From positions 6,764 through 70,763 of the forward strand of contig LSLI01000001.1 in the NCBI GenBank assembly GCA_001577345.1: a stretch of 64,000 nt of DNA, read 5' to 3'. Both the position numbers and the translations under genes were made by a program. The stretch comes from Candidatus Gallionella acididurans (lineage in GTDB: Bacteria > Pseudomonadota > Gammaproteobacteria > Burkholderiales > Gallionellaceae). Positions within the stretch are counted from its first letter, which is position 1; every line of letters starts with the position of its first letter. Below, piece by piece: positions 45,111 to 61,040 of this stretch. The notes beneath the pieces are model-generated. The model saw nothing but the letters and a program-made list of their open reading frames with translations. It was not told the origin of the DNA and did not search any database.

Positions 45111-46016
45111 ATGACCAACCTCATCCTGCTCATCCTGTGTTTCATCGCAGGCATGCTGTTGCACCGCTACAAGCGCATGCCGGTCAACACGCCGGCCGTG
45201 CTCAACAGCTTCATCATCCATGTTTCGATGCCCGCGCTGACGCTGTTGTATGTGCACGAGTTGAAAATCAGCGGACATATAGGGCTGATGGTGGCGATGG
45301 GATGGATAGTGTTCGCGCTGTCGGCGGTATTTTTCCGCTTCATCGGGCGCAGGCTGGACCTGCCGCGGCGCACGGTGGGCGCGCTGATACTGACCGGCGG
45401 GCTGTGCAATACATCCTATGTGGGGTTGCCGATGATAGAGGCGTATTACGGGCACCAGGGGCTTGCCGCCGGCATCATCGTCGACCAGCTTGGTTCATTC
45501 CTGGTGCTCTCCACACTGGGTATTACCTTTGCCGGCATCTATTCGTCGGGGCGTCCCGGGGCCGGTGAAATGGCAAAACGGATATTCCTGTTTCCGCCGT
45601 TCATCGCATTGATGCTCGCGGTGTTGCTGATGCCGGTGGCTTACCCCGAATGGCTGACTATCGTGCTCAAGCGCATGGGCGATACCCTGGCGCCGCTGGC
45701 GCTGCTCGCGGTGGGCTTTCAGCTGCGCCTGGGCCATCTCGCGGGCAATGTCAGGAACCTGGCCATAGGCCTTTCATTCAAGCTGGTGCTGGCACCGCTG
45801 GCCTTGTTCTTGTTGTATGTGCCGTTGCTCGGCGCGCATGGCCAGGCGATCCAGATCACGCTGTTCGAAGCGGCCATGCCGCCGATGATCACTTCCGCGA
45901 TTCTCGCGACCGAGCACGACCTCGATCCGCCGCTGGCGACGCTGATGGTGGCGATGGGGCTGGTGATTTCATTCGCCACGCTGACCTGCTGGTGGTGGCT
46001 GATGCGGGGTGTGTAA
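45111..46016 (+). CDS. AEC (auxin efflux carrier/malate permease) family transporter
   Basis: Multi-TM protein with NTSYVGLP, LFEAAMPP and KLVLAP motifs. Confidence 0.85.
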   Translation: MTNLILLILCFIAGMLLHRYKRMPVNTPAVLNSFIIHVSMPALTLLYVHELKISGHIGLMVAMGWIVFALSAVFFRFIGRRLDLPRRTVGALILTGGLCNTSYVGLPMIEAYYGHQGLAAGIIVDQLGSFLVLSTLGITFAGIYSSGRPGAGEMAKRIFLFPPFIALMLAVLLMPVAYPEWLTIVLKRMGDTLAPLALLAVGFQLRLGHLAGNVRNLAIGLSFKLVLAPLALFLLYVPLLGAHGQAIQITLFEAAMPPMITSAILATEHDLDPPLATLMVAMGLVISFATLTCWWWLMRGV

Positions 46017-46869: not shown

Positions 46870-49380
46870 ATGAAATCCAAACATGCTGATGACCAACCGA
46901 GTAACGGCGCAGATCGGGAGCTGCGGCAGGCGGAAGATGCACTTTACCGGACACTGTTCGAACATGCTCCGGTAGGAGTACTCGTTGCCGATACGGGAAG
47001 CCGTTATCTCGATGCCAACCCGAGCATCTGCCGGATGCTGGGCTATGCCCGCGACGAGCTGATCGGGATGCATGCCTCGGACATCCTGGTCCGATCCGGG
47101 ACGCAGCACATCATGCCGGCGCTGAACGATACCAAAATCCATTCCGGTTGCAGCCACGAGTGGCAGTTTCGGCGCAAGGACGGTTCGGTGTTCAGCGTCG
47201 AAGTCACCGCGACTACGATGCCCGATGGCAACCTGCTCGCAATGGTTCGCGACATCAGCGCGAGCAAGCCGGCAGACATGGCTGCCGCATGGCTGGCGGC
47301 GATCGTCGAATCTTCCGGCGACGCGATCATCGGCAAGGACCTGAACGGCATCGTCACCAGCTGGAACAGCGGCGCGGAAAAAATCTTCGGCTACAGCGCC
47401 CGCGAGATGGTCGGCACTTCCATCCTGCGGCTGTTCCCTGCCGACCGGCAGCACGAAGAGAAGCATATCCTGGGCAAGATCTGGCGCGGTGAAAAGGTGG
47501 AACACCTGGAAACGCTACGGCTGACCAAGGACAAGCGGCTGGTCGACGTCTTAATCACGACATCGCCGATCCGGGATGCCGCCGGCAATATCATCGGCGC
47601 CTCGAAGATCGCGCGCGACATCACGGCACTGAAAGCCCGCGAGCGGGAAATTGCCCGGATGTCCCGGCTGTATGCCGCGTTGAGCCAGATCAACCAAGCC
47701 ATCGTGTGGACCAAGACACGCGACGAGCTGTTTCAGAATATCTGCCGGGTACTCATCGAGCACGGCGGGTTCCAGATGGCCTGGATCGGCTGGCATGACC
47801 CGGCAACTCAGCTGCTGATGCCCGTCGCCGTGTGTGGTGACGAATCCGGCTATATCCGCAGCATCAGGATTTACACCGATGACAGGCCGGAGGCCCAGGG
47901 TCCGTCGGGCACGGCATTTCGCACTGGCCGCCCCTATATCTGCAACGACATGCTGAATGACCCGGCTACGCTGCCATGGCGGGCCGAGATCGTACGGCGC
48001 AGTTTCCGCGCCTCCGCGGTTTTTCCGGTACGGCAAAATGACCGGGTGTGCGGCACGCTCACTGTTTATGCGGACCAGCAGGATTTTTTTCAGGATGAGG
48101 AGATCGCGTTGCTGGCAGAGGCAGCCGGCGACGTTTCCTTCGCGCTCGACAATCTCGCCCGCGACGAAGAAAGGCGGCAGGCAGAAATGGCTGCGCAAAG
48201 CGAAAGGCAGTTCTCCGACACGATGATCGAAAGCATGCCCGGCATCCTGTATTTCTACAATGAGCAGGGGCAATTTTTGCGCTGGAACAAAAATTTCGAA
48301 ATTGTTTCCGGCTATTCCGGCGCTGAGATCGCGTGCATGCATCCGCTGGATATTTTCTCCGGCGAAGAGAAGCATGCGCTGGAACGGCGGATCGCCGAGG
48401 TTTTCGAGACCGGGGAGTCGTTCATCGAAGCATCGCTGATCGCCAGGGACGGCAAGGCCACGCCGTATTTTTTTACCGGCAGGCGCGTGGTGTTCAATGG
48501 CATGACGTGTCTGGTCGGCATGGGCATCGACATTTCCGAGCGCAAGCAGGCCGAGACCGCGTTGCGCGAGTTGAATGAAACCCTGGAACAGAAAGTGACC
48601 GAGCGCACCGGCGAATTGCAGGCCGCGCTGGTACGCGCCCGGGCGGCCGACGAGATCAAGTCCGCCTTCCTCGCGACGATGTCGCACGAGTTGCGCACGC
48701 CGCTGAACTCGATCATCGGCTTCACCGGCATAATCTTGCAGGGCCTGGCCGGGCCGTTGGGAGCCGAGCAGACCAAACAGCTCGGCATGGTGCAGGGTAG
48801 CGCCCGCCACCTGCTGGATTTGATCAACGATGTACTCGATATTTCGAAAATCGAGGCAGGCCAGCTTGAGGTCCGTGCCGAACCGTTTGACCTGCGCGTG
48901 TCGCTGGAGCGGGTGATCGCATTGGTGCGGCCTATGGCCGAAAAGAAGCATCTTGCGCTGGATGCCGTGATCCACGCCGGGCCATTCAACGTGGTCAGCG
49001 ACCGGCGCAGGGTGGAACAGATACTCCTGAACCTGCTCAACAATGCGATCAAGTTCACCGAGCACGGCGGCGTGACGGTCACGGCCGGGCTGATCGACGG
49101 ATTCCGGGCACAGCCCGACTTGCCGCCACGTCCGGCCGTGCGCTTGCAGGTATCCGATACCGGTATCGGCATCAAACCCGATGAGCTGGCCACGCTGTTC
49201 CAGCCGTTCCGCCAGCTTGATGCCGGCCTCACCCGCCAGCACGAGGGGACCGGACTGGGGCTGGCAATCTGCCGCCGGCTCGCAGTGCTGCTGCAGGGCG
49301 AGATAACGGTGAACAGCATATGGTCGAAAGGCAGCGAGTTCACCCTGACCATTCCTTTGCAGTTACCGTCCAGATCATGA
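46870..49380 (+). CDS. Soluble sensor histidine kinase (PAS-PAS-GAF-PAS-HisKA-HATPase)
   Basis: H-box MSHELRTPLNSIIGF, NLLNNAIKFT, DTGIGI and GTGLGL. No TM segments. Confidence 0.93.
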   Translation: MKSKHADDQPSNGADRELRQAEDALYRTLFEHAPVGVLVADTGSRYLDANPSICRMLGYARDELIGMHASDILVRSGTQHIMPALNDTKIHSGCSHEWQFRRKDGSVFSVEVTATTMPDGNLLAMVRDISASKPADMAAAWLAAIVESSGDAIIGKDLNGIVTSWNSGAEKIFGYSAREMVGTSILRLFPADRQHEEKHILGKIWRGEKVEHLETLRLTKDKRLVDVLITTSPIRDAAGNIIGASKIARDITALKAREREIARMSRLYAALSQINQAIVWTKTRDELFQNICRVLIEHGGFQMAWIGWHDPATQLLMPVAVCGDESGYIRSIRIYTDDRPEAQGPSGTAFRTGRPYICNDMLNDPATLPWRAEIVRRSFRASAVFPVRQNDRVCGTLTVYADQQDFFQDEEIALLAEAAGDVSFALDNLARDEERRQAEMAAQSERQFSDTMIESMPGILYFYNEQGQFLRWNKNFEIVSGYSGAEIACMHPLDIFSGEEKHALERRIAEVFETGESFIEASLIARDGKATPYFFTGRRVVFNGMTCLVGMGIDISERKQAETALRELNETLEQKVTERTGELQAALVRARAADEIKSAFLATMSHELRTPLNSIIGFTGIILQGLAGPLGAEQTKQLGMVQGSARHLLDLINDVLDISKIEAGQLEVRAEPFDLRVSLERVIALVRPMAEKKHLALDAVIHAGPFNVVSDRRRVEQILLNLLNNAIKFTEHGGVTVTAGLIDGFRAQPDLPPRPAVRLQVSDTGIGIKPDELATLFQPFRQLDAGLTRQHEGTGLGLAICRRLAVLLQGEITVNSIWSKGSEFTLTIPLQLPSRS

Positions 49381-49766
49381 GCTGCACGATACTGCTGATC
49401 GAAGACAACGAACAGAACCGCTATCTGGCGACTTTCCTGCTGGAGCAGCGCGGCCACAAGGTGATTCCCGCCCATGATGGCCCAAGCGGCATAGCGCTGG
49501 CAACGTCGCTAGCCCCCGGGCTGATATTGCTCGACATTCAATTGCCCCTGATGGATGGCTATGCCGTTGCTCAGGCGCTGCGCGGTGTCGATGCGCTGCG
49601 CAACACGCCTATTGTCGCGGTGACATCCTTTGCGATGGCCGGCGACCGCGAAAAAAGCCTGGCCGCCGGCTGCGATGGCTATATCGAAAAGCCGATCAAC
49701 CCCGAGACCTTTGTCGATGAGATCGAGCGCTTTTTAACTTCGCCAGCCGGGAGAAAACAGCCATGA
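49377..49766 (+). CDS. Single-domain response regulator (CheY/DivK-like)
   Basis: ILLIEDN, LLDIQLP and YIEKP. ATGA overlaps with both neighbours. Confidence 0.93.
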   Translation: MSCTILLIEDNEQNRYLATFLLEQRGHKVIPAHDGPSGIALATSLAPGLILLDIQLPLMDGYAVAQALRGVDALRNTPIVAVTSFAMAGDREKSLAAGCDGYIEKPINPETFVDEIERFLTSPAGRKQP

Positions 49767-52700
49767 CTCGCGTCCTGATCGTCGAAGACAAGGAAGAGAA
49801 TCTTTATTATCTGCGCGCTTTGCTGGAAGGCAACGGATGGGTAGTCGATTCCGCGTGCCACGGTGCCGAGGCACTGGTCAAGGCGCGGCAATCACCGCCG
49901 GACGTGATCATTTCCGACCTGCTGATGCCGGTGATGGACGGTTACTCGCTGCTGCGCCGCTGGAAGGCCGATGCACGTCTGAAGGATATTCCGTTCATCG
50001 TTTACACCGCAACCTACACCGAAGAGGATGACGAGCGCCTGGCCATGGATCTCGGCGCTGATGCCTTTATCCTCAAGCCTTCGGAGCCGCAGGATTTCAT
50101 CGCCCGGCTGCGCGAGGTTCAGGCCAACGCCGACGCAGCCAAACCGGCACTGCCCCACCAACCCACGGGCGATGAAAACACGCTGCTAAGGTATTACAGC
50201 GAGACGCTGATACACAAACTCGAGGACAAGACGCTGCAGCTGGAGGATGCCAACACTGCACTGCGGCGGGAGCTTGCCGAACGCAGGTCTGTGGAGGAGA
50301 AGCTGGGTTTCATGAACAGGATGCTACAGACCCAGCAGGAGACTTCGCTGGATGCGATTCTGGTAGTCGACGAAAACCAAAAAATACTCTTCCGCACCCA
50401 GAAAGTTATTGATCTATGGGGACTCCCTGCAGAAACATTAATGCCGGGACAGGATACACCCGCATCCATAGTTGCCGACCAGATTGAAGACGGGGATGCA
50501 TTTGTCGCCCAGATAAAATATTTGTACGAACACCGCAACGAGATGAGCATCGATGAATTGCAGTTCAAAGACGGCAGGATCATTGATCGCTATTCCGCGC
50601 CGATTACCGACACGGACGGAAAATATTACGGGCGTGTCTGGTACTATCGAGATGTCACGGAAACCAGGCGGGCGCAGCAGTCATTGCAGGCGAAAGAACA
50701 GGAGCAGCGCCAATTGGTTCAAATGCTTGAAGTCGAGCGATCCCGTCTGGTTGCGGCTCAACGGGTCGCCAAAGTTGGAAGCTGGGAGACCGACCTGGCC
50801 AGCATGGCGGTCATTTGGTCGGACGAGACCTTTCGTATCTTTGAAACCGAGCCGGCCAACTTTCATGGCACATATCAGGATTTCGTCCAGTATGTGCACC
50901 CTGAAGACCGCGCAGCGGTGGATGAGGCATTTGTCCGGTCGATCGAACAGCATACAGATGGCGTGATCGAGCACCGATTACTGCTGCCGAATGGCCGGAT
51001 CAAGTTCGTGGAAGAACGTTGGCAGGTAATGTTTGACGATCAGGAAAAGGCGATCCGAGCAGTCGGCACCTGCCAGGACATTACCGGGCGCAAACAATCT
51101 GAAATTGCGCTCAAGGCAAGCGAATCACGATATCAATTGCTGTTCGAGAACATGCTGGAAGGCTATGCGTACTGCAGGGCGATTTTCGAACAGGATCAAC
51201 TGCTGGACTTTGTCTACATCGAAGTCAACAGCGCGTTTGAAAAACTCACCGGACTTAAGGAGGTGGCTGGGAAAAAAATCAGCGACATCATCCCCGGAGT
51301 TAGGGAAACAAACCGGGAAATTTTCGAGGTTTACGGCCGGGTGGTATTGACCGGCAAGCCGGAAAAATTCGAGACATATGTGGCAGGTTTGGACATCTGG
51401 CTTTCCCTCGCTGTCTATAGCTATGATAAAGAGCATTTTGTGGCTGTCTTCGACAATATCACCCAACGCAAGGATACAGAAGCCAGGATCAGATACCTCA
51501 ACCGCGTTTATGCCGTGTTGAGCGGCATCAATGAGCTGATCGTGCGCGCGAATGACCGCGACCGGCTGTTCAGGGAGGCATGCCGGATTGCTGTCGAGGC
51601 AGGCGGATTCCGTATGGCCATGATATGCATCGTGGATCGCAGCGATATGCAAATAGTCCCTGTCGCCTCGGCGGGCAAGGACGTGGAACTGATGGATGCC
51701 ATCAAGAAAGTATTGTCATCCAGTGAGGGTACGCAGAAAACCATGACCGGGCAGGTAATCAGGGAAAAACAGGTCATCGTGTCCAACGATTCGCAAAGCG
51801 ACCCCAAGGTTGTGTTCCGCAAGGAATACGCCGAGTCAGGAGTGCGTTCGATGGCAATTTTTCCGCTGATCGTCTCGGATGAGGCGGTGGGTACGCTCGC
51901 GCTGTATGCCAGCGAGGTTGAATTTTTTCATGAGGATGAGGTACAGCTATTGACCGAACTGGCCATGGACGTCGCTTTCGCTATAGATCACATCGGCAAG
52001 CAGGAGCGGCTCAATTATCTCGCTTACTTCGATGCGCTCACCGGGCTGGCCAACCGCAGCCTGTTTTTCGAACGCGTCGGGCAATTCATCCGCAGTGCGG
52101 AGAGCAGCGGCCACCAGCTCGCCTTGTTGCTTATCGACTTGGAGCGATTTAAGAACATCAACGACAGCCTGGGCAGGGCCGCCGGTGACGCACTGCTTAA
52201 GCAGGTGGCCGAGTGGTTGAAGCAAAACATGGGAGGGGAAGGTCTGCTGGCACGGCTGGATGCGGACCATTTTGCCGTGGTAATGCCAAAAGTGAAGCCG
52301 GAGGGCAACCTGACCAAGTTGTTCGACAAGAAGTCTAGAGCTCTTCTGGAGCACCCGTTCCACCTGAGCGACGCCGTGTTTCGCATCTCAGCCAAGGCCG
52401 GTATCGCGCTGTGTCCCGATGACGGTAGCGATGTCGATACCCTGTTCAATAATGCCGAGGCCGCACTCAAGGTGGCCAAGCGGAGCGGCGACCGCTACCT
52501 GTTCCACACCAGGAAGATGACCGAGGCGGTGGCCGGCAAGCTCACGCTGGAAAACCAGCTGCGCCGTGCGATCGATAACGAGGAATTCGTGCTCCATTAC
52601 CAGCCCAAGGTGAATCTGGTCAGCGGCAAGGTTACGAGTGCCGAAGCGTTGATCCGCTGGAACGATCCGCGCACCGGCCTGGTGCCGCCGGGTCGTTTCA

Positions 52701-53305
52701 TCCCCATCCTGGAAGAGACAGGCCTGATCTACGATGTCGGGCGCTGGGCGCTGCGCCAGGCCATCGCGGATTACCTGCGCTGGCGTGCTGCCGGCTTGGC
52801 TGCAGTGCGTATCGCGGTGAACGTGTCGCCGCTGCAGCTGCGCAATCCCGGTTTTGCCGCCGAGATCGAGCGGAAGATCGGCATCAATGCGCATGCGGCC
52901 GAGGGGCTGGAGCTGGAGATCACCGAAAGCATGATCATGGAAGACCTGAAGCATAATGTCGCGAGCCTGCAGGCGATCCGCGCGATGGGAGTGACCGTGG
53001 CGATAGACGACTTCGGCACCGGTTTCTCTTCGCTGGGCTACCTCGCCAAGCTGCCGGCCGACACGCTGAAGATCGATCGCTCGTTCGTGGTCGGGATGAC
53101 CGCAGGGCCGGAAGGGCTGGCACTGGTGTCCACGATCATCGATCTGGCGCATGCGCTGAAGTTCAAGGTGGTTGCGGAAGGTGTCGAAACCGGGGAACAG
53201 TCAAACCTGTTGCGACTATTGAGCTGTGACGAGATGCAGGGTTATCTGTTCAGCAAACCGGTGCCGGTCGATGACTTCGAAAAGAGATTCCTCGGCCGGA
53301 CGTGA
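49763..53305 (+). CDS. REC-PAS-PAS-PAS-GAF-GGDEF(degenerate)-EAL protein, probable c-di-GMP phosphodiesterase
   Basis: Intact receiver (ISDLLMP, LKP). GGDEF is replaced by DADHF. AEAL and DDFGTGFSS are intact. Confidence 0.9.
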   Translation: MTRVLIVEDKEENLYYLRALLEGNGWVVDSACHGAEALVKARQSPPDVIISDLLMPVMDGYSLLRRWKADARLKDIPFIVYTATYTEEDDERLAMDLGADAFILKPSEPQDFIARLREVQANADAAKPALPHQPTGDENTLLRYYSETLIHKLEDKTLQLEDANTALRRELAERRSVEEKLGFMNRMLQTQQETSLDAILVVDENQKILFRTQKVIDLWGLPAETLMPGQDTPASIVADQIEDGDAFVAQIKYLYEHRNEMSIDELQFKDGRIIDRYSAPITDTDGKYYGRVWYYRDVTETRRAQQSLQAKEQEQRQLVQMLEVERSRLVAAQRVAKVGSWETDLASMAVIWSDETFRIFETEPANFHGTYQDFVQYVHPEDRAAVDEAFVRSIEQHTDGVIEHRLLLPNGRIKFVEERWQVMFDDQEKAIRAVGTCQDITGRKQSEIALKASESRYQLLFENMLEGYAYCRAIFEQDQLLDFVYIEVNSAFEKLTGLKEVAGKKISDIIPGVRETNREIFEVYGRVVLTGKPEKFETYVAGLDIWLSLAVYSYDKEHFVAVFDNITQRKDTEARIRYLNRVYAVLSGINELIVRANDRDRLFREACRIAVEAGGFRMAMICIVDRSDMQIVPVASAGKDVELMDAIKKVLSSSEGTQKTMTGQVIREKQVIVSNDSQSDPKVVFRKEYAESGVRSMAIFPLIVSDEAVGTLALYASEVEFFHEDEVQLLTELAMDVAFAIDHIGKQERLNYLAYFDALTGLANRSLFFERVGQFIRSAESSGHQLALLLIDLERFKNINDSLGRAAGDALLKQVAEWLKQNMGGEGLLARLDADHFAVVMPKVKPEGNLTKLFDKKSRALLEHPFHLSDAVFRISAKAGIALCPDDGSDVDTLFNNAEAALKVAKRSGDRYLFHTRKMTEAVAGKLTLENQLRRAIDNEEFVLHYQPKVNLVSGKVTSAEALIRWNDPRTGLVPPGRFIPILEETGLIYDVGRWALRQAIADYLRWRAAGLAAVRIAVNVSPLQLRNPGFAAEIERKIGINAHAAEGLELEITESMIMEDLKHNVASLQAIRAMGVTVAIDDFGTGFSSLGYLAKLPADTLKIDRSFVVGMTAGPEGLALVSTIIDLAHALKFKVVAEGVETGEQSNLLRLLSCDEMQGYLFSKPVPVDDFEKRFLGRT

Positions 53306-53316
53306 AATATCCGCAT

Positions 53317-53347
53317 AAGTCCCGCTCATCGCGGGCGGGACTTTTTG
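53317..53347. terminator. Intrinsic terminator between convergent operons
   Basis: AAGTCCCGCTC-ATCGC-GGGCGGGACTT-TTTT. Confidence 0.75.
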
Positions 53348-53401: not shown

Positions 53402-55075
53402 TCAAAACAAACCGACAATCACCCCGTCTTCATTGACGTCGATTGAATGCGCAGACGGAGTTTTGGGCAGGCCCGGCATCGTCATGATCTCGGCACATAC
53501 CACCACGATGAACTCCGCGCCGGCCGCCAGTCGGACCTCGCTGATGTCCAGGATGTGATTGTCCGGGGCACCTCGCAAGGTGGGGTCGGTGGAAAAGGAA
53601 TATTGGGTCTTCGCGATGCAGACCGGAAAATGTCCGTAACCGGTTTTTTGCAGGGATTCCAGGCGCGCGATGATTTTCTTGTCGGCGGAGATATCGGACG
53701 CACCGTATATTTTCGTTGCGATGGCCTTGATCTTGTTCCAGAGAGTCTCGCTGTCTTCATAGACAAATTTGAAATCGTTGGGCTGTTCGCACATCTTGAC
53801 GACCGCATGCGCCAGATCGACTGCGCCTTTGCCGCCTTCGGCCCAATGCCGCGCCACAATTACTTCTGCCCCGTGTGTAGCCGCGCTGGACTTCAGCAGG
53901 TCGACTTCTGCGGGTGTGTCCTCGGTGCGGTGATTGATCGCGACGACACAAGGCAGACCGAAATGGTTGCGTATGTTGTCGATGTGGCGCTCGAGATTGA
54001 CCAGGCCTTTTTTGAGCGCCGCCAGGTCTTCCTTGCCGGTATCCTTGACCTCGACCCCGCCGTGGTATTTCAGCGCGCGCACGGTTGCCACCAGCACGAC
54101 CGCCGAGGGTTGCAGGCCGGACTTGCGGCACTTGATGTCGATGAATTTCTCCGCGCCCAGGTCGGCACCGAAACCGGCTTCGGTCACGACGTAATCCGCC
54201 AGCTTCAGGGCAGTGGACGTGGCAATGACCGAGTTGCAACCATGGGCGATATTTGCGAACGGGCCGCCGTGTATGATCGCCAGGTTGTTCTCCATCGTTT
54301 GCACCACATTGGGGGAAAAGGCATCCCTCAGCATGGCCGTCATCGCACCGTGCGCATTCAGGTCTCTCGCCAGCACCGGCTTCTGGCCGGTGGTATAGCC
54401 GATCACAATATTCCCCAGCCTTTCTTTCAGGTCTTCCAGGCTCTTCGCGAGACAAAATATCGCCATGACTTCCGAAGCGACCACGATATCGAATCCGTCC
54501 TCCCTTACATAACCGTTGCCTGGGCCTCCCAGACCGATCGTGATCTTGCGCAGCGCGCGGTCATTCATGTCTATGACGCGCTTCCACGTGATTCGCCGGG
54601 TATCGATATCGAGTTCGTTGCCGTGGTGTATGTGGTTGTCGATCAGCGCGGCGAGCAGGTTGTTGGCCAGCGAGATGGCATTGAAATCGCCGGTGAAGTG
54701 CAGGTTGATATCTTCCATCGGCACGACTTGTGCAAATCCGCCGCCGGCAGCGCCGCCCTTCATGCCGAATACCGGGCCGAGCGAGGGCTCGCGCAGGCAG
54801 ATTATCGCGTTCTTGCCGATCTGGTTCAGCGCGTCGCCCAGGCCCACCGTCGTCGTCGTCTTGCCCTCACCGGCGGGGGTGGGCGAAATGGCTGTAACCA
54901 GGATCAGTTTCCCGTTGGGTTCTTCCGCAATCCGGGCCGCATATTCAAGGGAAAGCTTGGCCTTGTAATGGCCGTATGGTTCAAGGGCTTCGGGCGGGAT
55001 ATTGGCCCGCTCTTCGGCCAGTCCGATGATGGTCCGTTTCGAGGCGGATTGCGCGATTTCAATATTGCTTTTCAC
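53402..55075 (-). CDS. fhs: Formate--tetrahydrofolate ligase
   Basis: [54 protein letters not shown] and MTMPGL. GTG start after AGGAG. Confidence 0.96.
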
Positions 55076-55150
55076 GATTGGATACTCCTGACGCCTGTTC
55101 CGGCATTGCAATAAATTCTGGTTCCGACTTTAAGTAAGACATAATTTTTT

Positions 55151-55173
55151 CTGGCCTGGCCTGGCCTGGCCTG
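55151..55173. repeat. Pentanucleotide simple repeat (CTGGC)4
   Basis: CTGGC x4 plus CTG in the agt-fhs intergenic region. Confidence 0.7.
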
Positions 55174-55217
55174 CTGCGTAAGTCCGGCGCAACCCAGCCC
55201 ATCACAGCGGCAAGCGG

Positions 55218-56399
55218 TCAACTTGCCAGCAGCCGGTTGGCTGCCTCCACGCCGACGCCATGCCTGATCGGCGCTTTCAGGCGCACCAGCACATCGTCCA
55301 GTGCGTTCAGGCACAGCCGCACGTTGCTCGGGCTGCTGGAGTGTCCCATCAGGCCGATGCGCCATACTTTTCCGGCCATCGCACCCAGGCCTGCGCCGAT
55401 TTCCAGCTTGTGTTCGGAGAGCAGGAGCGAACGTACCGCAGCTTCATCCACGCCATCCGGCACAATGATCGCATTCAGTTGCGGCAGGCACTCCGCTTCG
55501 GGCACCATGAAGTTGAGCCCCATTGCTTCCAGCCCGGCACGCAGCGCGAGATGATTTTTATGGTGACGCGCCCAGGCATTTTGCAGGCCCTCTTCCTGCA
55601 GTATCACCAGTGCCTCGTGCAAGCCATACAGCGCGTTGATCGGCGCGGTGTGGTGGTAGGCGCGCTTGGTCGCGCCTCCCCAGTAACCCATCACCAGATT
55701 CAGGTCCATGAACCAGCTCTGTACTTTGGTCTTGCGATTCCTGATCTTTTCCTGCGCCCGGGGATTGAAGCTGACCGGGGAGAGGCCAGGCGTGCACGAC
55801 AGGCATTTCTGCGTGCCCGAGTACACCGCATCGATGTTCCATTGGTCAACATTGAGCGGGGTACCGCCCAGTGAAGTGATCGCGTCGACAATGGTCAGGC
55901 AATCATATTTGTGCGCGATCTCGACCAGTGCTTTCGCGTCGGATTGTGCGCCGGTGGAGGTTTCCGCGTGCACGAAAGCGACGATGCGGGCATCGGGATT
56001 GGCTTTGAGCGCGTCCTCCAGTTTTTGCGGATCGATCGCGCGCCCCCATTCATCCTGTACCATCACCGCGATGCCGCCGCAACGTTCGACATTCTCTTTC
56101 ATGCGCCCGCCGAACACGCCGTTCTGGCACACGATGACCTTGTCTCCCGGCTCGACCAGATTGACGAAGCAGGTTTCCATGCCGGCAGAGCCCGGTGCCG
56201 AGACCGGCATGGTCAATTCATTTTCGGTCTGGAATGCGAATTTCAGCAGCGTTTTCATCTCGTCCATCATGGTTATGAAAACCGGATCAAGGTGGCCTAT
56301 GGTCGGACGCGACAGGGCTTCCAGAACACGCGGGCTGACATCGGAGGGACCTGGCCCCATCAAAACGCGTTGCGGCGGGTGGAACGATTTGATTGCCAT
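55218..56399 (-). CDS. Alanine/serine--glyoxylate aminotransferase (PLP class V)
   Basis: LMGPGPS, GHLDP, VHAETSTG, DAITSLGG, SGTQKCLS and YHHT. Confidence 0.9.
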   Translation of the reverse strand: MAIKSFHPPQRVLMGPGPSDVSPRVLEALSRPTIGHLDPVFITMMDEMKTLLKFAFQTENELTMPVSAPGSAGMETCFVNLVEPGDKVIVCQNGVFGGRMKENVERCGGIAVMVQDEWGRAIDPQKLEDALKANPDARIVAFVHAETSTGAQSDAKALVEIAHKYDCLTIVDAITSLGGTPLNVDQWNIDAVYSGTQKCLSCTPGLSPVSFNPRAQEKIRNRKTKVQSWFMDLNLVMGYWGGATKRAYHHTAPINALYGLHEALVILQEEGLQNAWARHHKNHLALRAGLEAMGLNFMVPEAECLPQLNAIIVPDGVDEAAVRSLLLSEHKLEIGAGLGAMAGKVWRIGLMGHSSSPSNVRLCLNALDDVLVRLKAPIRHGVGVEAANRLLAS

Positions 56400-56432
56400 G
56401 CTGTGGTCTCTCCTTGTTTGAATAAGTATTAT

Positions 56433-57650
56433 TTAATTCCGGCCCTGTTCCAGCAACTCTATCCAGTGCTTGACCGGCACATCGCTCGCGCCGGCCAGGT
56501 GCATCTGGCAACCGACATTGGCGGAGGCGATCACTTCCGGCTTGCCTGCACCCAGCGCGGCCAGTTTGTTGTCCAGCAGTTGCCGGGACAGTTTGGCTTG
56601 CAGCAGGGTGTATGTCCCGGCTGCGCCGCAGCACAGATGGCTGTCCGCGACAGGCGTGAGTTCGTAACCGCAACGCCTGAGGATCGCTTCCACTGTCCCG
56701 CCGAGCTTCTGTCCGTGCTGCAGGGTGCAGGACGAGTGGTAGGCCACGCGCGTGCCCCTGCCGATGTGCGCCCAGGCATCCAGATTCTCGCGGCCCAGAA
56801 TTTCGGCCAGGTCGAGCGTGATCGAGCTGATGCGCGCGGCCTTGTCTGCATACCCGGCATCGTCTTTCAATGCATGGCCGTAGTCCTTCACCATCAGTCC
56901 GCAGCCGCTGGCGGTCATCACGATCGCCTCGACGCCGCTCTCGAGGTATGGCCACCATGCATCGATGTTGCGGCGCATCATCGCGCGCGCGCCCTCGCTG
57001 TCGGACAGGTGCTGGTTGAGTGCGCCGCAGCAACCCGCACCCGGTGCGCTGACCAGCGAGATGCCGAGCCGGTCGAGCACGCGTGCCGCGGCCGCATTGG
57101 TGTTCGGCGTACCCAGCGGCTGGACGCAGCCCTGCAGAACCAGCATGCGCCGTGCGTGGGATGTCACCGGTGTCACGGTGGCGGCCTGTTTGGCCGGTAT
57201 TTTTTTTCCGAGTTCTGCCGGCAGCAGCGGGCGGACCAGGCGCGCCAGCGCCAGCACGACCGACATCCGGCCGGTATGGGGGATGACCGCGAGCATGGCC
57301 TTGCGCAACAGCCGTTCGGCAAGGGAGCGCGGCGCCAGCTGTTCGACCATCTCGCGGCCGATGTCGACCAGGCGGCCATAACGCACCCCGGACGGGCAGG
57401 TGGTCTCGCAGGAGCGGCAGGTCAGGCAGCGATCCAGATGCAATCGGGTCTTGGCGCTGGCCTGCTGCGTCTCGAGCATTTCCTTGATCAGGTAAATGCG
57501 GCCGCGCGGGCCATCCAGCTCCGATCCCAGCAACTGGTAGGTCGGGCAGGTCGCGGTGCAGAATCCGCAGTGCACGCAGCTGCGCAGGATGTCATCTGCT
57601 TCTGCGATATCGGGATTTCTCAGCAGTTCGGCGGAAATGGAGGTTTGCAT
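56433..57650 (-). CDS. glcF: Glycolate dehydrogenase Fe-S subunit
   Basis: CVHCGFCTATCPTY, DGPRGRI, CLTCRSCETTCP and two CCG domains. Confidence 0.95.
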   Translation of the reverse strand: MQTSISAELLRNPDIAEADDILRSCVHCGFCTATCPTYQLLGSELDGPRGRIYLIKEMLETQQASAKTRLHLDRCLTCRSCETTCPSGVRYGRLVDIGREMVEQLAPRSLAERLLRKAMLAVIPHTGRMSVVLALARLVRPLLPAELGKKIPAKQAATVTPVTSHARRMLVLQGCVQPLGTPNTNAAAARVLDRLGISLVSAPGAGCCGALNQHLSDSEGARAMMRRNIDAWWPYLESGVEAIVMTASGCGLMVKDYGHALKDDAGYADKAARISSITLDLAEILGRENLDAWAHIGRGTRVAYHSSCTLQHGQKLGGTVEAILRRCGYELTPVADSHLCCGAAGTYTLLQAKLSRQLLDNKLAALGAGKPEVIASANVGCQMHLAGASDVPVKHWIELLEQGRN

Positions 57651-57651
57651 G

Positions 57652-58716
57652 TCAGAGTTCGGCGTACAGCCGGCCGCGGTTGAAAATGTTCTTCGGGTCG
57701 AAACTTGCCTTGATCCGCTGGTGTATCGCCAGCAGCGGTGCAGGCAATGGCTGGAAAATTTCGTCTGTTTGTTTGCCGCCGCGAAACGCGGTGACATGGC
57801 CGCCAACGCTTGCGATGCGATGGCGTAACGATGCAGGGTCTTCATTGCTGTACAACCAGCGTTGCGCGCCGCCCCAGTCCAGCAGCCAAGTGCCTTCGAT
57901 ATTTAGGGGCGGAGTCGCGGGTTTGACCATCACGCGGTACAGCGCGCCGTTGCGCTTGAAGAAAGGCAGCTGATGCTCGCGCAGCGCATGCCAGAAGGCA
58001 TCGGCATCCGGCAGCACGTCGCCGGCTATCTTGCTGCGCGCCTCCCGGACGGCCTGTGCGCTGCCGGAGATGCGTATATACAATTGTTCGCCGTGAAAGC
58101 ACGCGCCGTCCACCGGAAGCGGCTTGCCCAGCAAGGCACTCATGCTCGAGACTGCACCTGCCGCGTTGCATACTCTTGTAACGGTGATGCTGGCCGCCGG
58201 GCGCGGCAGCACCTTCAGGCTGAGCTCGAGCATGACGCCCAGCGTGCCATGGGCACCGACCATCAGCCGCGAGACGTCGTAGCCTGCGACGTTCTTCATC
58301 ACCTGTCCGCCGAAGCGCAGTATCTCGCCTCGGCCGTTGATCAGTTTGCAGCCCAGCACGGAATCGCGCGCGGATCCGCAGTAGGGGCGGCGCGGCCCGG
58401 ACAATCCGCACGCAATCGTGCCGCCCAGCGTGGCAGCCTCGCCGAAATGCGGCGGTTCGAACGCCAGCATCTGCTCGGCTTCGGCCAGTGCGGCTTCGAT
58501 CTCGTGCAGCGTGGTGCCGCTGCGCACCGTCAGCACCAGTTCGCGCGGATCGTACTCGACGATGCCGCGGTGCCCGGTGACATCGATAGCCTGTCCCCGG
58601 CTTGCGTTGCCGAGAAAAGCCTTGCTGCCGCTTGCGGAAATACTGAGTGGCGTCTCCTTATGGAACGCGTCCAGCACCTGTTGCTGCAGTGCAGCGCTGA
58701 TATCTGATTCAAGCAT
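57652..58716 (-). CDS. glcE: Glycolate dehydrogenase FAD subunit GlcE
   Basis: YDPRELVLTV, FEPPHFG, GGQVMKNVAGYDVSR and LDWGGAQRW. Confidence 0.95.
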   Translation of the reverse strand: MLESDISAALQQQVLDAFHKETPLSISASGSKAFLGNASRGQAIDVTGHRGIVEYDPRELVLTVRSGTTLHEIEAALAEAEQMLAFEPPHFGEAATLGGTIACGLSGPRRPYCGSARDSVLGCKLINGRGEILRFGGQVMKNVAGYDVSRLMVGAHGTLGVMLELSLKVLPRPAASITVTRVCNAAGAVSSMSALLGKPLPVDGACFHGEQLYIRISGSAQAVREARSKIAGDVLPDADAFWHALREHQLPFFKRNGALYRVMVKPATPPLNIEGTWLLDWGGAQRWLYSNEDPASLRHRIASVGGHVTAFRGGKQTDEIFQPLPAPLLAIHQRIKASFDPKNIFNRGRLYAEL

Positions 58717-58724
58717 GGGTGTCT

Positions 58725-60194
58725 TTAGAAGCGCTCCAGTTCGGGATGTGGGAGTTGTCCGTGGTGCACATGCATCGCGCCGAATTCGGCGCAGCGGCGC
58801 AGTGTAGGCACGGCCTTGCCCGGATTGAGCAGGCCGGAGGGATCGAATGCGGCCTTGACGGCGTGAAACTGGCTCAATTCTGCGCTGTGGAACTGGACGC
58901 ACATCTGGTCTATTTTTTCGACGCCGACCCCGTGCTCGCCGGTGATGGTGCCGCCGACTTCCACGCACAGTTGCAGGATGCTTCGGCCGAATTCCTCGGT
59001 GCGATGCAGCTCGCCTTCCTTGTTGGCGTCGAACAGGATCAACGGGTGCAGGTTGCCGTCCCCGGCGTGGAACACGTTGGCGACCGCCAATCCGTATTCG
59101 GCCGACATCTCGCCGATGCGGCGCAACACATGCGGCAACTGGCGGCGCGGTATCGTGCCATCCATGCAGTAATAATCAGGCGAGATGCGTCCCACGGCGG
59201 GGAAGGCTGATTTGCGCCCCTTCCAGAACAGCTGCCGCTCGGCCTCGTCCGCCGCGGTGCGCACTTCGGTCGCGCCGCTGGCTGTCAATATGTTGCGCAC
59301 CGCGAGGATGTATTCGGATACCTCGGCATGCGTGCCGTCCAGTTCGCACAGCAGGATGGCATCGGCATCGCGCGGATAACCCGCATGCACGAAATCCTCC
59401 GCCGCCCGGATGGCGAGCTTGTCCATCATTTCCAGACCGGCGGGGATGATGCCGGCGGCGATGATGGAGCCGACCGCCTCGCCCGCCTTCATCACATCGT
59501 CAAAGGCCGCCAGCACGACCTGTGCGCGTTCCGGTTTGGCCAACAGCTTGACGGTGATTTCGACGATCACGCCCAGCATGCCCTCGGAACCGGTCATCAG
59601 CGCCAGCAGGTCATAGCCGGGCGAGTCCAGCGTCTCGGCGCCTATGGTCAGCAGTTCGCCTTCCATAGTGACCACTTTCAGCATCAGGATATTGTGCACG
59701 GTCAGGCCGTATTTCAGGCAATGCACGCCACCGGAGTTTTCCGCGACATTGCCGCCTATCGTGCAGGCGATCTGCGACGAGGGGTCGGGCGCGTAATACA
59801 TGCCGTAGGCCGCCGCAGCTTCGGATATGGCCAGGTTGCGCACACCGGGTTGCACGGTAGCCATCGCGTTATGCACATCGATATTCAGGATGCGGTTGAA
59901 TTTTGCCAGACTCAGCAGCAGTCCGTCCGCCAGCGGCAGTGCGCCGCCGGAAAGACCGGTGCCCGCGCCGCGCGCCACTACCGGCACCCCGTGTGCATGG
60001 CACAGGCGCAGGATGCTTTGCACCTGCGCTACGGTTTCCGGCAGCGCCACGACCATGGGCAGCTGCCGGTAGACTGCCAGCCCGTCGCACTCGAACGGGC
60101 GCATATCCTCTGCATCCGCAAGCACGGATTCTGACGGCAATAAGCCGCGCAGCGCACTAATCAGTGCGGTATTGTTTTCGCGTAGATGAGGCAA
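58725..60194 (-). CDS. glcD: Glycolate dehydrogenase subunit GlcD
   Basis: ARGAGTGLSGGA, YAPDPSSQIAC, HCLKYG, HAGDGNLHP and EHGVGVEK. TTG start. Confidence 0.95.
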   Translation of the reverse strand: MPHLRENNTALISALRGLLPSESVLADAEDMRPFECDGLAVYRQLPMVVALPETVAQVQSILRLCHAHGVPVVARGAGTGLSGGALPLADGLLLSLAKFNRILNIDVHNAMATVQPGVRNLAISEAAAAYGMYYAPDPSSQIACTIGGNVAENSGGVHCLKYGLTVHNILMLKVVTMEGELLTIGAETLDSPGYDLLALMTGSEGMLGVIVEITVKLLAKPERAQVVLAAFDDVMKAGEAVGSIIAAGIIPAGLEMMDKLAIRAAEDFVHAGYPRDADAILLCELDGTHAEVSEYILAVRNILTASGATEVRTAADEAERQLFWKGRKSAFPAVGRISPDYYCMDGTIPRRQLPHVLRRIGEMSAEYGLAVANVFHAGDGNLHPLILFDANKEGELHRTEEFGRSILQLCVEVGGTITGEHGVGVEKIDQMCVQFHSAELSQFHAVKAAFDPSGLLNPGKAVPTLRRCAEFGAMHVHHGQLPHPELERF

Positions 60195-60437
60195 TGGAAC
60201 TCCGGGAAGCTGCGTTTGTAAAATTTATTTATGCAAGCATATTAAGTTAGTCGGGTATAAAATTCCAGCGGAATGAACGGCAGGGTTCACAGCGGAGCAG
60301 GCAGGATAATACAGCCCAAATCTGTATTCTTGCCGCGGCCATGGAATTTGCCGTTGGCGGGAGCAGGTGGCCGGTCGATAACGGGCTGCAGCCGCTGCAA
60401 TGTTTACGGGATACTTTACAAAGGAAATATTTTAGTC

Positions 60438-61040
60438 ATGAATAAATGGGATGAACGTTACGCCAGTGAGGAATTCTATTTTGGAACAAAGCCGAATGAT
60501 TTTCTGGTTTCGCAACGGCTTCTGTTGAAACCGGGCATGAGCTGCCTCGCGGTGGCCGACGGGGAAGGGCGCAACGGCGTGTGGTTGGCGCAGCAGGGTT
60601 TGCGGGTGCTGTCGGTGGAAGCGTCACCGGTGGCTCTGGAAAAGGCGCGCAAGCTGGCCGAACAGCGCGGCGTTATCGTGGAATTCGAGCAGGCCGATCT
60701 AAGCCAGTGGCAATGGGGCGAAAACCGCTTCGATATGGTGGCGGCGATCTTTATCCAGTTCGCGGATCCCGCATTGCGCGAACAAATGTTCGCGGGCATC
60801 AGGCGCTGCCTGAAACCGGGCGGGTTGCTGTTGCTGCAAGGCTACACTCCGCGCCAGCTCGAGTACAAGACCGGCGGCCCGCCGGCGGCGGAGAACATGT
60901 ACACCGAAGCATTGTTGCGTGAAGCGTTCGGCGACATGGAAATCATTCATCTGCGCGAGCATGACGATCATGTCAGCGAAGGCGCGGGACACAGCGGCAT
61001 ATCGGCATTGATCGACCTGGTGGCGCGCAAGGTTGCTTGA
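60438..61040 (+). CDS. Class I SAM-dependent methyltransferase (TehB-like)
   Basis: WDERY, VADGEGRNGVWLA and LKPGGLLLL. Confidence 0.85.
   Translation: MNKWDERYASEEFYFGTKPNDFLVSQRLLLKPGMSCLAVADGEGRNGVWLAQQGLRVLSVEASPVALEKARKLAEQRGVIVEFEQADLSQWQWGENRFDMVAAIFIQFADPALREQMFAGIRRCLKPGGLLLLQGYTPRQLEYKTGGPPAAENMYTEALLREAFGDMEIIHLREHDDHVSEGAGHSGISALIDLVARKVA

What the first reader, a model, noticed from the sequence alone, without database searches (positions are those of the whole stretch)
53402..60194. glcDEF, glyoxylate aminotransferase and fhs: a candidate glycine/C1 route of phosphoglycolate salvage
Seen: five co-oriented genes, glcD-glcE-glcF (gaps 8 and 1 bp), a class V alanine/serine:glyoxylate aminotransferase (33 bp) and fhs (142 bp, no clear terminator). 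The cluster is bounded by a divergent gene and a terminator, so it is complete in the window. It has no glcB, gcl, tartronate semialdehyde reductase or glcC. Established: GlcDEF oxidises glycolate to glyoxylate, and characterised chemolithoautotroph salvage (Cupriavidus) uses the glycerate pathway and malate cycle, whereas transamination to glycine belongs to the plant/cyanobacterial C2 cycle. Fhs interconverts formate and 10-formyl-THF. Inference: either (a) glycine is cleaved and the C1 unit leaves through FolD and reverse Fhs as formate plus ATP, or (b) Fhs recaptures formate, for example from H2O2-driven glyoxylate decarboxylation in a microaerophile, to make serine from glycine without glycine cleavage. 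I know of no description of this operon.
Basis: partly seen in the sequence, partly recalled or inferred. Interest (0 to 1): 0.7.

Follow-up and report, generated by a model that had tools for sequence, protein, structure and literature searches.

The report
Glycolate-to-glycine operon with added fhs
An iron-oxidising, CO2-fixing Gallionella carries a common operon that turns the RuBisCO by-product glycolate into glycine; in a few related species a formate-tetrahydrofolate ligase gene sits behind it, hinting at a formate link that is not shown.

Summary
Five co-oriented minus-strand genes, glcD, glcE, glcF, an AGXT-type class V aminotransferase (AGT) and fhs, lie at 53402-60194 with the stated gaps.

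The genome is a Gallionella MAG. It has four RuBisCO genes, gph, gcvTHP, glyA, folD, an HprA-like dehydrogenase and a MOFRL glycerate kinase, so a plant/cyanobacterial-type C2 cycle is encodable. It also has malate synthase A without isocitrate lyase, purU, purT and an NAD-type formate dehydrogenase (FDH). It lacks gcl.

The conserved unit is glcDEF-AGT: glcF lies directly upstream of AGT in 51 of 75 informative relative loci. fhs is a rare add-on:
- It occurs in 12 of 317 Gallionellaceae genomes and in 7 of 156 Gallionella.
- It follows AGT in only 2 of 68 informative loci.
- It is never adjacent to AGT in a 401-genome phylum sample.

Within this one Fhs clade the gene sits behind AGT in two different genomic contexts and behind glcF where AGT has decayed. 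Ten of the 12 fhs-positive genomes also have the FDH. No terminator or riboswitch separates AGT from fhs.

Verdict: this is a known-type glycolate-to-glycine salvage operon with a lineage-specific fhs. Coupling to formate/C1 metabolism is plausible (about 40%), and its direction is unresolved. Interest is moderate.

The parts
58725..60194 (-). glcD, FAD-binding subunit of glycolate dehydrogenase (489 aa, TTG start)
   Evidence: NF008408 scores 859 bits, just under its cut-off of 897. Pfam FAD_binding_4 and FAD-oxidase_C are present. It is 68% identical to E. coli GlcD.
57652..58716 (-). glcE, second FAD-binding subunit (354 aa), 8 bp after glcD
   Evidence: NF008439 scores 502 bits against a cut-off of 284. 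It is 52% identical to E. coli GlcE.
56433..57650 (-). glcF, Fe-S/CCG subunit (405 aa), 1 bp after glcE
   Evidence: NF008434 scores 630 bits against a cut-off of 333. Pfam CCG and 4Fe-4S dicluster domains are present.
55218..56399 (-). AGXT-type class V aminotransferase (393 aa), a candidate alanine/serine:glyoxylate aminotransferase, 33 bp after glcF
   Evidence: Pfam Aminotran_5 is present. The closest solved structure is 1VJO, Anabaena alanine-glyoxylate aminotransferase, at E 1e-106, followed by animal AGXT. The SGTQK motif with the PLP-binding lysine is read directly in the translation. The BhcA model scores only 211 bits against a cut-off of 650. glcF lies directly upstream in 51 of 75 relative loci.
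55076..55217 (-). AGT-fhs spacer of 142 bp. It holds GC-rich hairpins, a (GCCAG)4 repeat at 55151-55170, an A/T-rich stretch and the CAGGAG ribosome-binding site.
   Evidence: The sequence is shown. It has no terminator-like or sigma-70-like site and no Rfam match. Its fold is not better than shuffled sequence (z -1.5). Repeat length varies in related metagenome contigs.
53402..55075 (-). fhs, formate-tetrahydrofolate ligase (557 aa, GTG start)
   Evidence: NF010030 scores 886 bits against a cut-off of 652, and PF01268 scores 870 bits. It is the only copy in the genome. It is present in 12 of 317 Gallionellaceae genomes.
53317..53343 (.). Hairpin between the convergent fhs and the sensor gene. 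It marks the 3' boundary of the cluster.
   Evidence: The terminator scan finds 11 pairs followed by a T-run on the plus strand. The sequence is shown.
60273..61040 (+). Divergent neighbour at the 5' boundary, a SAM-methyltransferase-like protein (255 aa)
   Evidence: The ORF is listed. No NCBIfam family matches it. The orthologous gene next to glcD in L129 carries Methyltransf_11/25/31 Pfam hits. It is conserved beside glcD in many loci.
46870..53305 (+). Variable slot between the cluster and the conserved AEC-transporter gene. Here it holds a PAS histidine kinase (46870-49380) and a 1180-aa receiver-PAS protein whose translation ends in GGDEF/EAL-type regions (49763-53305).
   Evidence: The histidine kinase is identified. 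The 1180-aa protein's domain label rests on reading its translation, not on a profile search. In other Gallionella this slot is empty (about 55 bp) or holds other genes.
45111..46016 (+). AEC-family (auxin efflux carrier, Mem_trans) transporter, a conserved convergent neighbour of glcDEF(-AGT) in Gallionella
   Evidence: TIGR00946 scores 75 bits, below its cut-off. PF03547 is on the ortholog. The synteny is shown.

Best explanation
Conserved unit. The functional unit is glcDEF plus an AGXT-type aminotransferase. RuBisCO's oxygenase product 2-phosphoglycolate is dephosphorylated by Gph. GlcDEF oxidises the glycolate to glyoxylate, and the aminotransferase converts glyoxylate to glycine.

Completing the cycle. 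Genes elsewhere in the genome can finish a plant/cyanobacterial-type C2 cycle: GcvTHP and GlyA make serine from two glycines, and an HprA-like dehydrogenase and a MOFRL glycerate kinase return the carbon as phosphoglycerate.

Role of fhs. fhs is a rare accessory gene in Gallionellaceae that, in this small lineage, sits behind the aminotransferase and is probably read from the same transcript. Together with FolD it joins formate to the methylene-THF pool at the glycine/serine step.

Direction. I rate the assimilatory direction slightly more likely. Formate would be converted to 10-formyl-THF and then methylene-THF, which with glycine gives serine and spares the CO2 and NH3 loss of glycine cleavage. 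My reason is that this is the only capability the genome lacks without Fhs. The oxidative direction, from the glycine-derived C1 unit to formate plus ATP and then to CO2 through the NAD-linked FDH, is not excluded.

What is shown and what is inferred. Shown: gene identities, synteny statistics and the genome inventory. Inferred: substrate specificity of the aminotransferase, co-transcription, any flux, and the direction of Fhs.
For: - Gene identities are established.
- The genome has four RuBisCO genes (three form I, one form II) and a Gph above its cut-off.
- gcvTHP, glyA, folD, purU, purT and purN are present, and gcl, hyi, glxK, glcA and glcC are absent. The best gcl-like hit is an acetolactate synthase.
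- An HprA-like 2-hydroxyacid dehydrogenase and a MOFRL glycerate kinase are present.
- glcF lies directly upstream of AGT in 51 of 75 informative loci from Gallionella, Sideroxydans, Nitrotoga, Sulfuricella, Ca. Tenderia and others.
- Within Gallionella, genomes with glc genes are enriched for the glycerate kinase: 48 of 69 against 23 of 87.
- fhs linkage takes three forms. Form A is glcDEF-AGT-fhs, seen in four genomes (G000, G085, G156 and probably G075). Form B is glcDEF-AGT remnant-fhs, seen in G153. Form C is AGT-fhs with 42-72 bp gaps beside nadC, with no glcDEF seen in the stretch read.
- In the Fhs tree, form C is basal to the clade that holds forms A and B, with support 99/97. The AGT-fhs pair therefore looks ancestral to this clade or moved as a unit.
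- No terminator or riboswitch lies in the spacer.
- Ten of 12 fhs-positive family genomes carry the FdsGBA-type FDH, against 49 of 305 others.
Against: - fhs is absent from 305 of 317 family genomes, including most that carry glcDEF-AGT. The salvage module therefore works without it.
- The same Fhs clade also sits in at least five unrelated contexts: G053, G317, G254, G253 and L126.
- In G153 the aminotransferase has decayed while fhs is kept.
- None of the genomes with both genes in a 401-genome phylum sample has them adjacent.
- The 142-bp spacer could hold an unrecognised promoter.
- The co-occurrence statistics are not corrected for phylogeny or genome completeness. All the accessory genes tested co-vary, for example glycerate kinase with FDH at an odds ratio of 5.2.
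- Malate synthase A is present and could take the glyoxylate.
- No usable transcript evidence was found.
Confidence: 0.55

Rival explanations
1. fhs is a passenger. It landed in, or was left in, the variable slot downstream of the glcDEF-AGT operon. It serves general formate and C1 housekeeping: recycling formate from PurU, deformylase and cofactor synthesis, or using environmental formate together with the FDH. It has no special tie to glycolate salvage.
For: - fhs is present in only 12 of 317 family genomes and lies in many contexts.
- The slot between AGT and the AEC-transporter gene is variable and here also holds two sensor genes.
- The 142-bp spacer is much longer than the other gaps in the operon.
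- There is no adjacency in the phylum-wide sample.
- The FDH co-occurrence fits a self-standing formate module.
Against: - Adjacency to AGT appears in two different genomic contexts, with very short gaps in the second.
- fhs is retained behind glcF after AGT decayed.
- No terminator lies in the spacer.
- All 7 fhs-positive Gallionella have glcDEF, against 62 of 149 others.
Confidence: 0.35
2. Most glyoxylate is not aminated. It is condensed with acetyl-CoA by malate synthase A and oxidised to CO2, as in the malate cycle of Cupriavidus necator. The aminotransferase only supplies biosynthetic glycine.
For: - Malate synthase A scores 785 bits against a cut-off of 594.
- No isocitrate lyase is found. 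The best aceA hit is 24% identical at E 3e-9.
- The malate cycle is shown in C. necator, and malate synthase is common in non-cyanobacterial RuBisCO genomes (PMC7486775).
Against: - Malate synthase is not linked to glcDEF. It lies in a separate cluster with a methylmalonate-semialdehyde dehydrogenase, a tartronate-semialdehyde-reductase-type gene and a 2-hydroxyacid dehydrogenase.
- The gene conserved next to glcDEF is the aminotransferase.
- Malic enzyme and the other steps of the malate cycle were not checked.
Confidence: 0.15
3. The cluster serves uptake and use of external glycolate (and formate) as supplementary carbon, that is mixotrophy. It does not serve salvage of RuBisCO-derived 2-phosphoglycolate.
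For: - The glcDEF-plus-aminotransferase module also occurs in heterotrophs, according to unchecked earlier notes of this scan on SAR11 and others.
- An AEC-family transporter is a conserved neighbour.
- glcDEF-AGT is found in only 69 of 156 Gallionella genomes.
Against: - No GlcA/LldP-type glycolate permease and no GlcC regulator are found in the genome.
- The loci with the operon come mainly from lineages named as CO2-fixing chemolithotrophs.
- Gph and four RuBisCO genes are present.
Confidence: 0.1

Closest known systems
Plant/cyanobacterial C2 (photorespiratory) cycle, including the Anabaena/Nostoc alanine-glyoxylate aminotransferase (PDB 1VJO)
   Same: The steps are the same: Gph, glycolate oxidation, glyoxylate transamination to glycine, GcvTHP plus GlyA, hydroxypyruvate reduction and glycerate phosphorylation. 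The aminotransferase is closest to the cyanobacterial enzyme.
   Different: The host is a chemolithoautotrophic iron oxidiser. Glycolate is oxidised by the three-subunit GlcDEF. The first two steps are fused into one operon. The glycerate kinase is of the MOFRL type, which makes 2-phosphoglycerate. A formate-THF ligase is appended in a few species.
[quoted passage not shown] 2020, PMC7486775)
   Same: It is a Calvin-cycle chemolithoautotroph of the same GTDB order. GlcDEF makes glyoxylate, and a malate synthase and an NAD-linked Fds-type FDH are present.
   Different: In C. necator the C2 cycle does not operate and gcl-hyi-tsr carries the flux. Here gcl and hyi are absent, and the gene linked to glcDEF is an aminotransferase.
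THF-linked C1 oxidation pathway of SAR11 (Sun et al. 2011, PMC3160333)
   Same: FolD, Fhs and an NAD-type FDH (fdhF/fdsB/fdhD) occur together. Fhs is predicted to run towards formate with an ATP yield.
   Different: In SAR11 the C1 units come from methylated compounds, and fhs is not linked to glcDEF or an aminotransferase. Here the proposed C1 source is glycine cleavage, and the direction is untested.
Serine cycle entry in methylotrophs (FtfL, Fch/MtdA, GlyA, SgaA, HprA, GckA) — from general knowledge, not checked in a paper here
   Same: Formate is converted to methylene-THF, which with glycine gives serine. A serine/alanine:glyoxylate aminotransferase, hydroxypyruvate reductase and glycerate kinase follow.
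   Different: No test was made for malate thiokinase or malyl-CoA lyase. The organism fixes CO2 with RuBisCO. The aminotransferase is of the AGXT type, closer to 1VJO than to the plant SGAT 6PK1 (360 against 153 bits).

Membership tests
GlcDEF glycolate dehydrogenase | Three adjacent subunits are required: GlcD (FAD_binding_4 plus FAD-oxidase_C), GlcE (FAD_binding_4) and GlcF (two 4Fe-4S motifs plus two CCG domains). | tested here: met
   GlcE and GlcF score above their equivalog cut-offs. GlcD scores 859 against 897, just under, and is 68% identical to E. coli GlcD. The order glcD-glcE-glcF has gaps of 8 and 1 bp.
GlcDEF glycolate dehydrogenase | Glycolate-oxidising activity (as opposed to D-lactate or another 2-hydroxyacid) | not testable with these tools
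   It is inferred from orthology only.
AGXT-type class V glyoxylate aminotransferase | Class V fold with the PLP-binding lysine in an SGxQK motif, and close similarity to characterised alanine/serine:glyoxylate aminotransferases | tested here: met
   Aminotran_5 is present. The SGTQK motif is read in the translation. 1VJO matches at E 1e-106 and animal AGXT at about 1e-79.
AGXT-type class V glyoxylate aminotransferase | Glyoxylate as amino acceptor, and the identity of the donor (alanine, serine, glutamate or aspartate) | not testable with these tools
   No equivalog model is passed. The BhcA model scores 211 bits against a cut-off of 650, so it is not a BhcA.
Formate-tetrahydrofolate ligase (Fhs/FtfL) | Full-length FTHFS domain with the P-loop | tested here: met
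   PF01268 covers positions 1-556 of 556 at 870 bits. NF010030 scores 886 against a cut-off of 652. [10 protein letters not shown] is read in the translation.
C2 (photorespiratory) cycle | A RuBisCO with oxygenase side activity and a 2-phosphoglycolate phosphatase | tested here: met
   Four RuBisCO large-subunit genes are present. Gph on C55 scores 259 against a cut-off of 225.
C2 (photorespiratory) cycle | Glycine cleavage system plus serine hydroxymethyltransferase | tested here: met
   gcvT, gcvH and gcvP lie on C56 (51-56% identical to E. coli). glyA lies on C5 (67% identical).
C2 (photorespiratory) cycle | Hydroxypyruvate reductase and glycerate kinase that return carbon to phosphoglycerate | tested here: inconclusive
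   An HprA-like 2-hydroxyacid dehydrogenase scores 373 bits, below its cut-off of 448, and is split over two contig ends. A MOFRL protein passes the Pfam cut-off but falls below the archaeal glycerate-2-kinase equivalog cut-offs. Specificities are untested.
Bacterial glycerate pathway (Gcl-Hyi-Tsr-GlxK) | Glyoxylate carboligase | tested here: not met
   The best hit is 34% identical and is an acetolactate synthase: 1022 bits on the ALS model against 396 bits on the Gcl model, whose cut-off is 791. hyi and glxK/garK are absent. A Tsr-type reductase is present.
Malate cycle (C. necator) | Malate synthase available to take glyoxylate | tested here: met
   TIGR01344 scores 785 bits against a cut-off of 594. 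Isocitrate lyase is not found. Malic enzyme and pyruvate dehydrogenase were not tested.
THF-linked C1 oxidation or formate assimilation module | FolD, Fhs and a formate dehydrogenase in one genome | tested here: met
   folD lies on C70. fhs is the gene in this window. fdsG-, fdsB- and fdsA-like genes plus fdhD lie on C14. The fdsG and fdsB labels rest on reading the ORFs only, and fdsA on a 27% identity to E. coli FdoG; none of the three was run against a family profile. The direction of flux is not testable.

The most novel reading that the evidence does not exclude
In a small clade of Gallionellaceae, phosphoglycolate salvage has acquired a formate branch. Fhs is co-expressed with the glyoxylate aminotransferase and works with FolD and an NAD-linked FDH. 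One possibility is that it builds serine from glycine plus formate-derived methylene-THF, which would be a CO2- and NH3-neutral, serine-cycle-like salvage not described in a natural Calvin-cycle autotroph. The other is that it burns the glycine-derived C1 unit to CO2 with recovery of ATP and NADH, which would be a THF-linked counterpart of the malate cycle.
Probability: 0.3. Interest if true: 0.65.

Novelty: new variant of a known kind. Interest (0 to 1): 0.4.

Why it matters
How non-photosynthetic Calvin-cycle autotrophs dispose of 2-phosphoglycolate has, as far as my searches and the one study read here (Cupriavidus) show, been examined experimentally in few organisms. There the C2 cycle was found not to operate.

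This survey shows that an operon fusing glycolate oxidation to glyoxylate transamination is common in Gallionellaceae and other lithoautotrophic Beta- and Gammaproteobacteria. It co-occurs with a glycerate kinase. This points to a plant-like route in energy-limited iron and nitrite oxidisers.

A natural formate-fed or formate-yielding variant would interest two groups: those who engineer carbon-conserving photorespiratory bypasses, and those who study carbon and energy budgets of iron-oxidising mats. The fhs link is confined to a handful of species and remains unproven, so its weight is moderate.

Tried and rejected
1. Riboswitch upstream of fhs (ZTP/pfl, THF or glycine types). No Rfam match up to E = 1 in 53000-60600.

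2. Terminator or sigma-70 promoter in the AGT-fhs spacer. None was found, and the fold is not better than shuffles. I read a sigma-54-like GG...TTGC by eye, but the spacing is about 4 nt too long. I rejected it from reading the sequence only.

3. Transcript evidence.
- The run labelled RNA-Seq (X7) has a contig spanning the AGT-fhs junction.
- Its depth is a flat 4-6 over 20 kb of genes on both strands.
- It comes from a relative about 96-97% identical, so it looks like DNA.
- X25 is dominated by other organisms' glcD.
- I draw no conclusion from either run.

4. BhcA (beta-hydroxyaspartate cycle) identity for the aminotransferase. Rejected: 211 bits against a cut-off of 650.

5. gcl. The best hit is an acetolactate synthase.

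6. Generality of the AGT-fhs pair. In 401 evenly drawn Pseudomonadota genomes, none of those with both genes listed has them adjacent. Note that this call's match table was truncated.

7. Literature. Searches on Gallionellaceae with glycolate or phosphoglycolate, glcDEF with glyoxylate aminotransferase, and fhs with photorespiration found no description of this operon. The Gallionellaceae pangenome paper does not mention formate, glyoxylate, glycine or serine.

8. Co-occurrence as proof of coupling. I discounted it because all accessory genes tested co-vary within the genus.

Full report
**Observation**

The five genes are real and lie on the minus strand:
- glcD at 58725-60194
- glcE at 57652-58716
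- glcF at 56433-57650
- a class V aminotransferase (AGT) at 55218-56399
- fhs at 53402-55075, starting at a GTG behind a CAGGAG ribosome-binding site

Curated profiles identify GlcE, GlcF and Fhs above their cut-offs. GlcD falls just under its cut-off (859 against 897 bits) but is 68% identical to E. coli GlcD.

The aminotransferase is of the AGXT type. Its closest solved structure is the Anabaena alanine-glyoxylate aminotransferase 1VJO (E 1e-106), followed by animal AGXT. The plant SGAT is much more distant, and the BhcA model is far below its cut-off.

The cluster is bounded by a divergent methyltransferase-like gene and by a hairpin shared with a convergent sensor gene. Each of the five genes is single-copy in the genome.

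**Organism and inventory**

Record titles of the nearest loci name Gallionella and Gallionellaceae. The genome is a 3.43 Mb MAG in 316 contigs, and the window lies on a 101 kb contig.

I searched it with E. coli K-12 proteins, curated profiles and Pfam families.

Present:
- three form I RuBisCO genes and one form II gene
- a Gph above its cut-off, plus paralogues, one of them next to a RuBisCO gene
- gcvTHP, glyA and folD
- purU, purT and purN
- an fdsG/fdsB/fdsA-like NAD-type formate dehydrogenase (FDH) with fdhD. These labels rest on ORF reading and a 27% match to E. coli FdoG, not on a profile search.
- a MOFRL glycerate kinase
- a second cluster, split over the ends of contigs C34 and C128, that encodes a methylmalonate-semialdehyde dehydrogenase, a tartronate-semialdehyde-reductase-type enzyme, an HprA-like 2-hydroxyacid dehydrogenase, malate synthase A and a GMC oxidoreductase

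Absent:
- gcl (the best hit is acetolactate synthase)
- hyi and glxK/garK
- a GlcA-type permease and glcC
- G-type malate synthase and isocitrate lyase

**What is conserved**

I looked at 80 loci around close relatives of the aminotransferase.
- glcF lies directly upstream in 51 of the 75 loci with enough sequence.
- fhs follows AGT in only 2 of the 68 loci with enough downstream sequence.

The operon glcD-glcE-glcF-AGT occurs in Gallionella, Sideroxydans, Nitrotoga, Sulfuricella and MAGs labelled Ca. Tenderia.

In Gallionella the ancestral neighbourhood runs methyltransferase | glcDEF(-AGT) | AEC-family transporter | thrC | hom. The stretch between AGT and the transporter gene is a variable slot. 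It is empty in some species and filled with other genes in others. Here it holds fhs and two sensor genes.

**How rare fhs is**

I used a concatenated GlcF+AGT+Fhs query.
- Of the 24 Gallionella genomes sampled first, none had fhs.
- In all 156 Gallionella species genomes held, 7 had it.
- In 317 Gallionellaceae genomes, 12 had it, in 3 of 18 genera.
- In 401 evenly drawn Pseudomonadota genomes, the genomes listed with both an AGT orthologue and Fhs never had them adjacent.

**Why fhs may still be linked**

The Gallionellaceae Fhs proteins form one clade (86-99% identical, support 99/97). Within this clade the gene occurs in four situations.
- A: glcDEF-AGT-fhs. This is seen in this genome, in G085 (the same record as L030), in G156 (the same record as L060, Fhs 92%, on a 1.29 Mb contig) and probably in G075, where a contig breaks in the spacer.
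- B: glcDEF-86-aa ORF-fhs, in G153. The small ORF is a remnant of the aminotransferase that joins its residues 1-22, 288-310 and 364-391.
- C: AGT-fhs with gaps of only 72 and 42 bp next to nadC and clpB, without glcDEF in the stretch read (AGT 84% identical in L123, Fhs 86%).
- D: at least five other contexts without either partner.

Context C branches first in the tree. The simplest history is therefore an ancestral AGT-fhs pair that was kept in two lineages and lost in others. The pair could also have moved as a unit. Either history is more than a single chance insertion. It still rests on few independent events.

No terminator-like hairpin followed by a U-run, no sigma-70-like promoter and no Rfam element lies in the 142-bp spacer. 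Read-through from the operon is therefore plausible but not shown. The only run labelled RNA-Seq that holds the region looks like DNA.

**Co-occurrence**

The FdsGBA-type FDH is present in 59 of 317 family genomes but in 10 of the 12 with fhs (odds ratio 26, Fisher p about 1e-6).

In Gallionella all 7 fhs genomes have the FDH, glcDEF and the glycerate kinase. Genomes with glc genes are enriched for the glycerate kinase (48 of 69 against 23 of 87).

These numbers are not corrected for phylogeny or completeness. Unrelated accessory pairs also co-vary, for example glycerate kinase with FDH at an odds ratio of 5.2. I treat the figures as hints only. They suggest that fhs belongs with formate metabolism and that glcDEF-AGT belongs with a route back to phosphoglycerate.

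**Mechanism**

The best-supported reading has two parts of unequal strength.

The first part is fairly firm (about 0.75). glcDEF-AGT converts RuBisCO-derived glycolate to glycine. Housekeeping GcvTHP and GlyA, together with the HprA-like enzyme and the MOFRL kinase, can complete a C2-type cycle. In the one chemolithoautotroph whose study I read here (Cupriavidus), the C2 cycle did not operate (PMC7486775).

The second part is tentative (about 0.4). In this lineage Fhs is co-expressed and connects formate to the methylene-THF used or produced at the glycine/serine step. The direction is open.
- The genome already has PurU, which can release formate from 10-formyl-THF. Fhs therefore adds a new capability only in the assimilatory direction: formate into the C1 pool, and serine from glycine without glycine cleavage. 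This is my reason to rank that direction slightly higher.
- The oxidative direction has a precedent in SAR11, where folD, fhs and an fdhF/fdsB/fdhD FDH are predicted to oxidise C1 units with an ATP yield (PMC3160333). It fits the FDH co-occurrence equally well.

The main rival (about 0.35) is that fhs is a passenger in a variable slot.

**Novelty and score**

A glcDEF-plus-glyoxylate-aminotransferase module is a known kind. It also recurs in unchecked earlier notes of this scan on other genomes. Its prevalence in Gallionellaceae and the appended fhs were not found described in any paper I could search.

I rate it a new variant of a known kind with interest 0.4. The conserved part is expected biochemistry in an understudied group. 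The unusual part is confined to a few species and rests on inference.

Noticed in passing
own genome G000, contig C34:1-3188 joined to C128:1939-5575 (outside the window): A second glyoxylate-related cluster is split across two contig ends. It encodes a CoA-acylating methylmalonate/malonate-semialdehyde dehydrogenase, a tartronate-semialdehyde-reductase-type enzyme, an HprA-like 2-hydroxyacid dehydrogenase (its two halves join seamlessly across the contig ends), malate synthase A and a GMC oxidoreductase. Nearby lie an IclR regulator, an ABC transporter, a phosphoketolase/transketolase-like 735-aa protein and a four-carbon-acid-kinase-like protein. Malate synthase without isocitrate lyase or Gcl is unexplained.
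   Followed up: partly
window 55151-55170: A (GCCAG)4 microsatellite lies in the AGT-fhs spacer. Related metagenome contigs show 5-nt and other length differences here, and the G075 assembly breaks between AGT and fhs, possibly at this repeat.
   Followed up: no
window 45111-46016 and loci L032-L107: An AEC-family (Mem_trans) transporter gene is the conserved convergent neighbour of glcDEF(-AGT) across Gallionella, sometimes only about 55 bp from the AGT stop. It may export or import a C2/C4 acid, or the adjacency may be plain synteny.
   Followed up: no
L129/L130/L131 6744-7004 (G153:C3): An 86-aa ORF between glcF and fhs is a decayed aminotransferase. It joins AGT residues 1-22, about 288-310 and 364-391. 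This species has lost the operon's aminotransferase but kept glcDEF and fhs.
   Followed up: yes
L124/L125 9706-11979: In a lineage whose Fhs is 80% identical, fhs converges on a 757-aa fusion of a 3-hydroxyisobutyrate-dehydrogenase-like NAD-binding domain with a class III aminotransferase.
   Followed up: no
own genome G000, C14:11000-22300 (outside the window): fdsG-, fdsB- and fdsA-like genes and fdhD lie next to molybdenum-cofactor genes (mobA- and mobB-like) and a divergent regulator. The gene labels other than fdhD rest on ORF reading and weak identity. This FDH is present in 59 of 317 Gallionellaceae genomes, yet formate is not mentioned in the family's pangenome paper.
   Followed up: partly
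genus survey: Only 69 of 156 Gallionella species genomes (35 of 86 high-quality ones) have glcF or the AGT at all. More than half of these RuBisCO autotrophs seem to lack glycolate oxidation and may excrete glycolate.
   Followed up: no
L020 and L023 (G008, a complete 3.1 Mb Gallionella genome): In this complete genome the AGT orthologue (74-77% identical) lies about 180 kb from a more divergent glcDEF (GlcF 56% identical). The operon fusion is therefore not universal in the genus.
   Followed up: no
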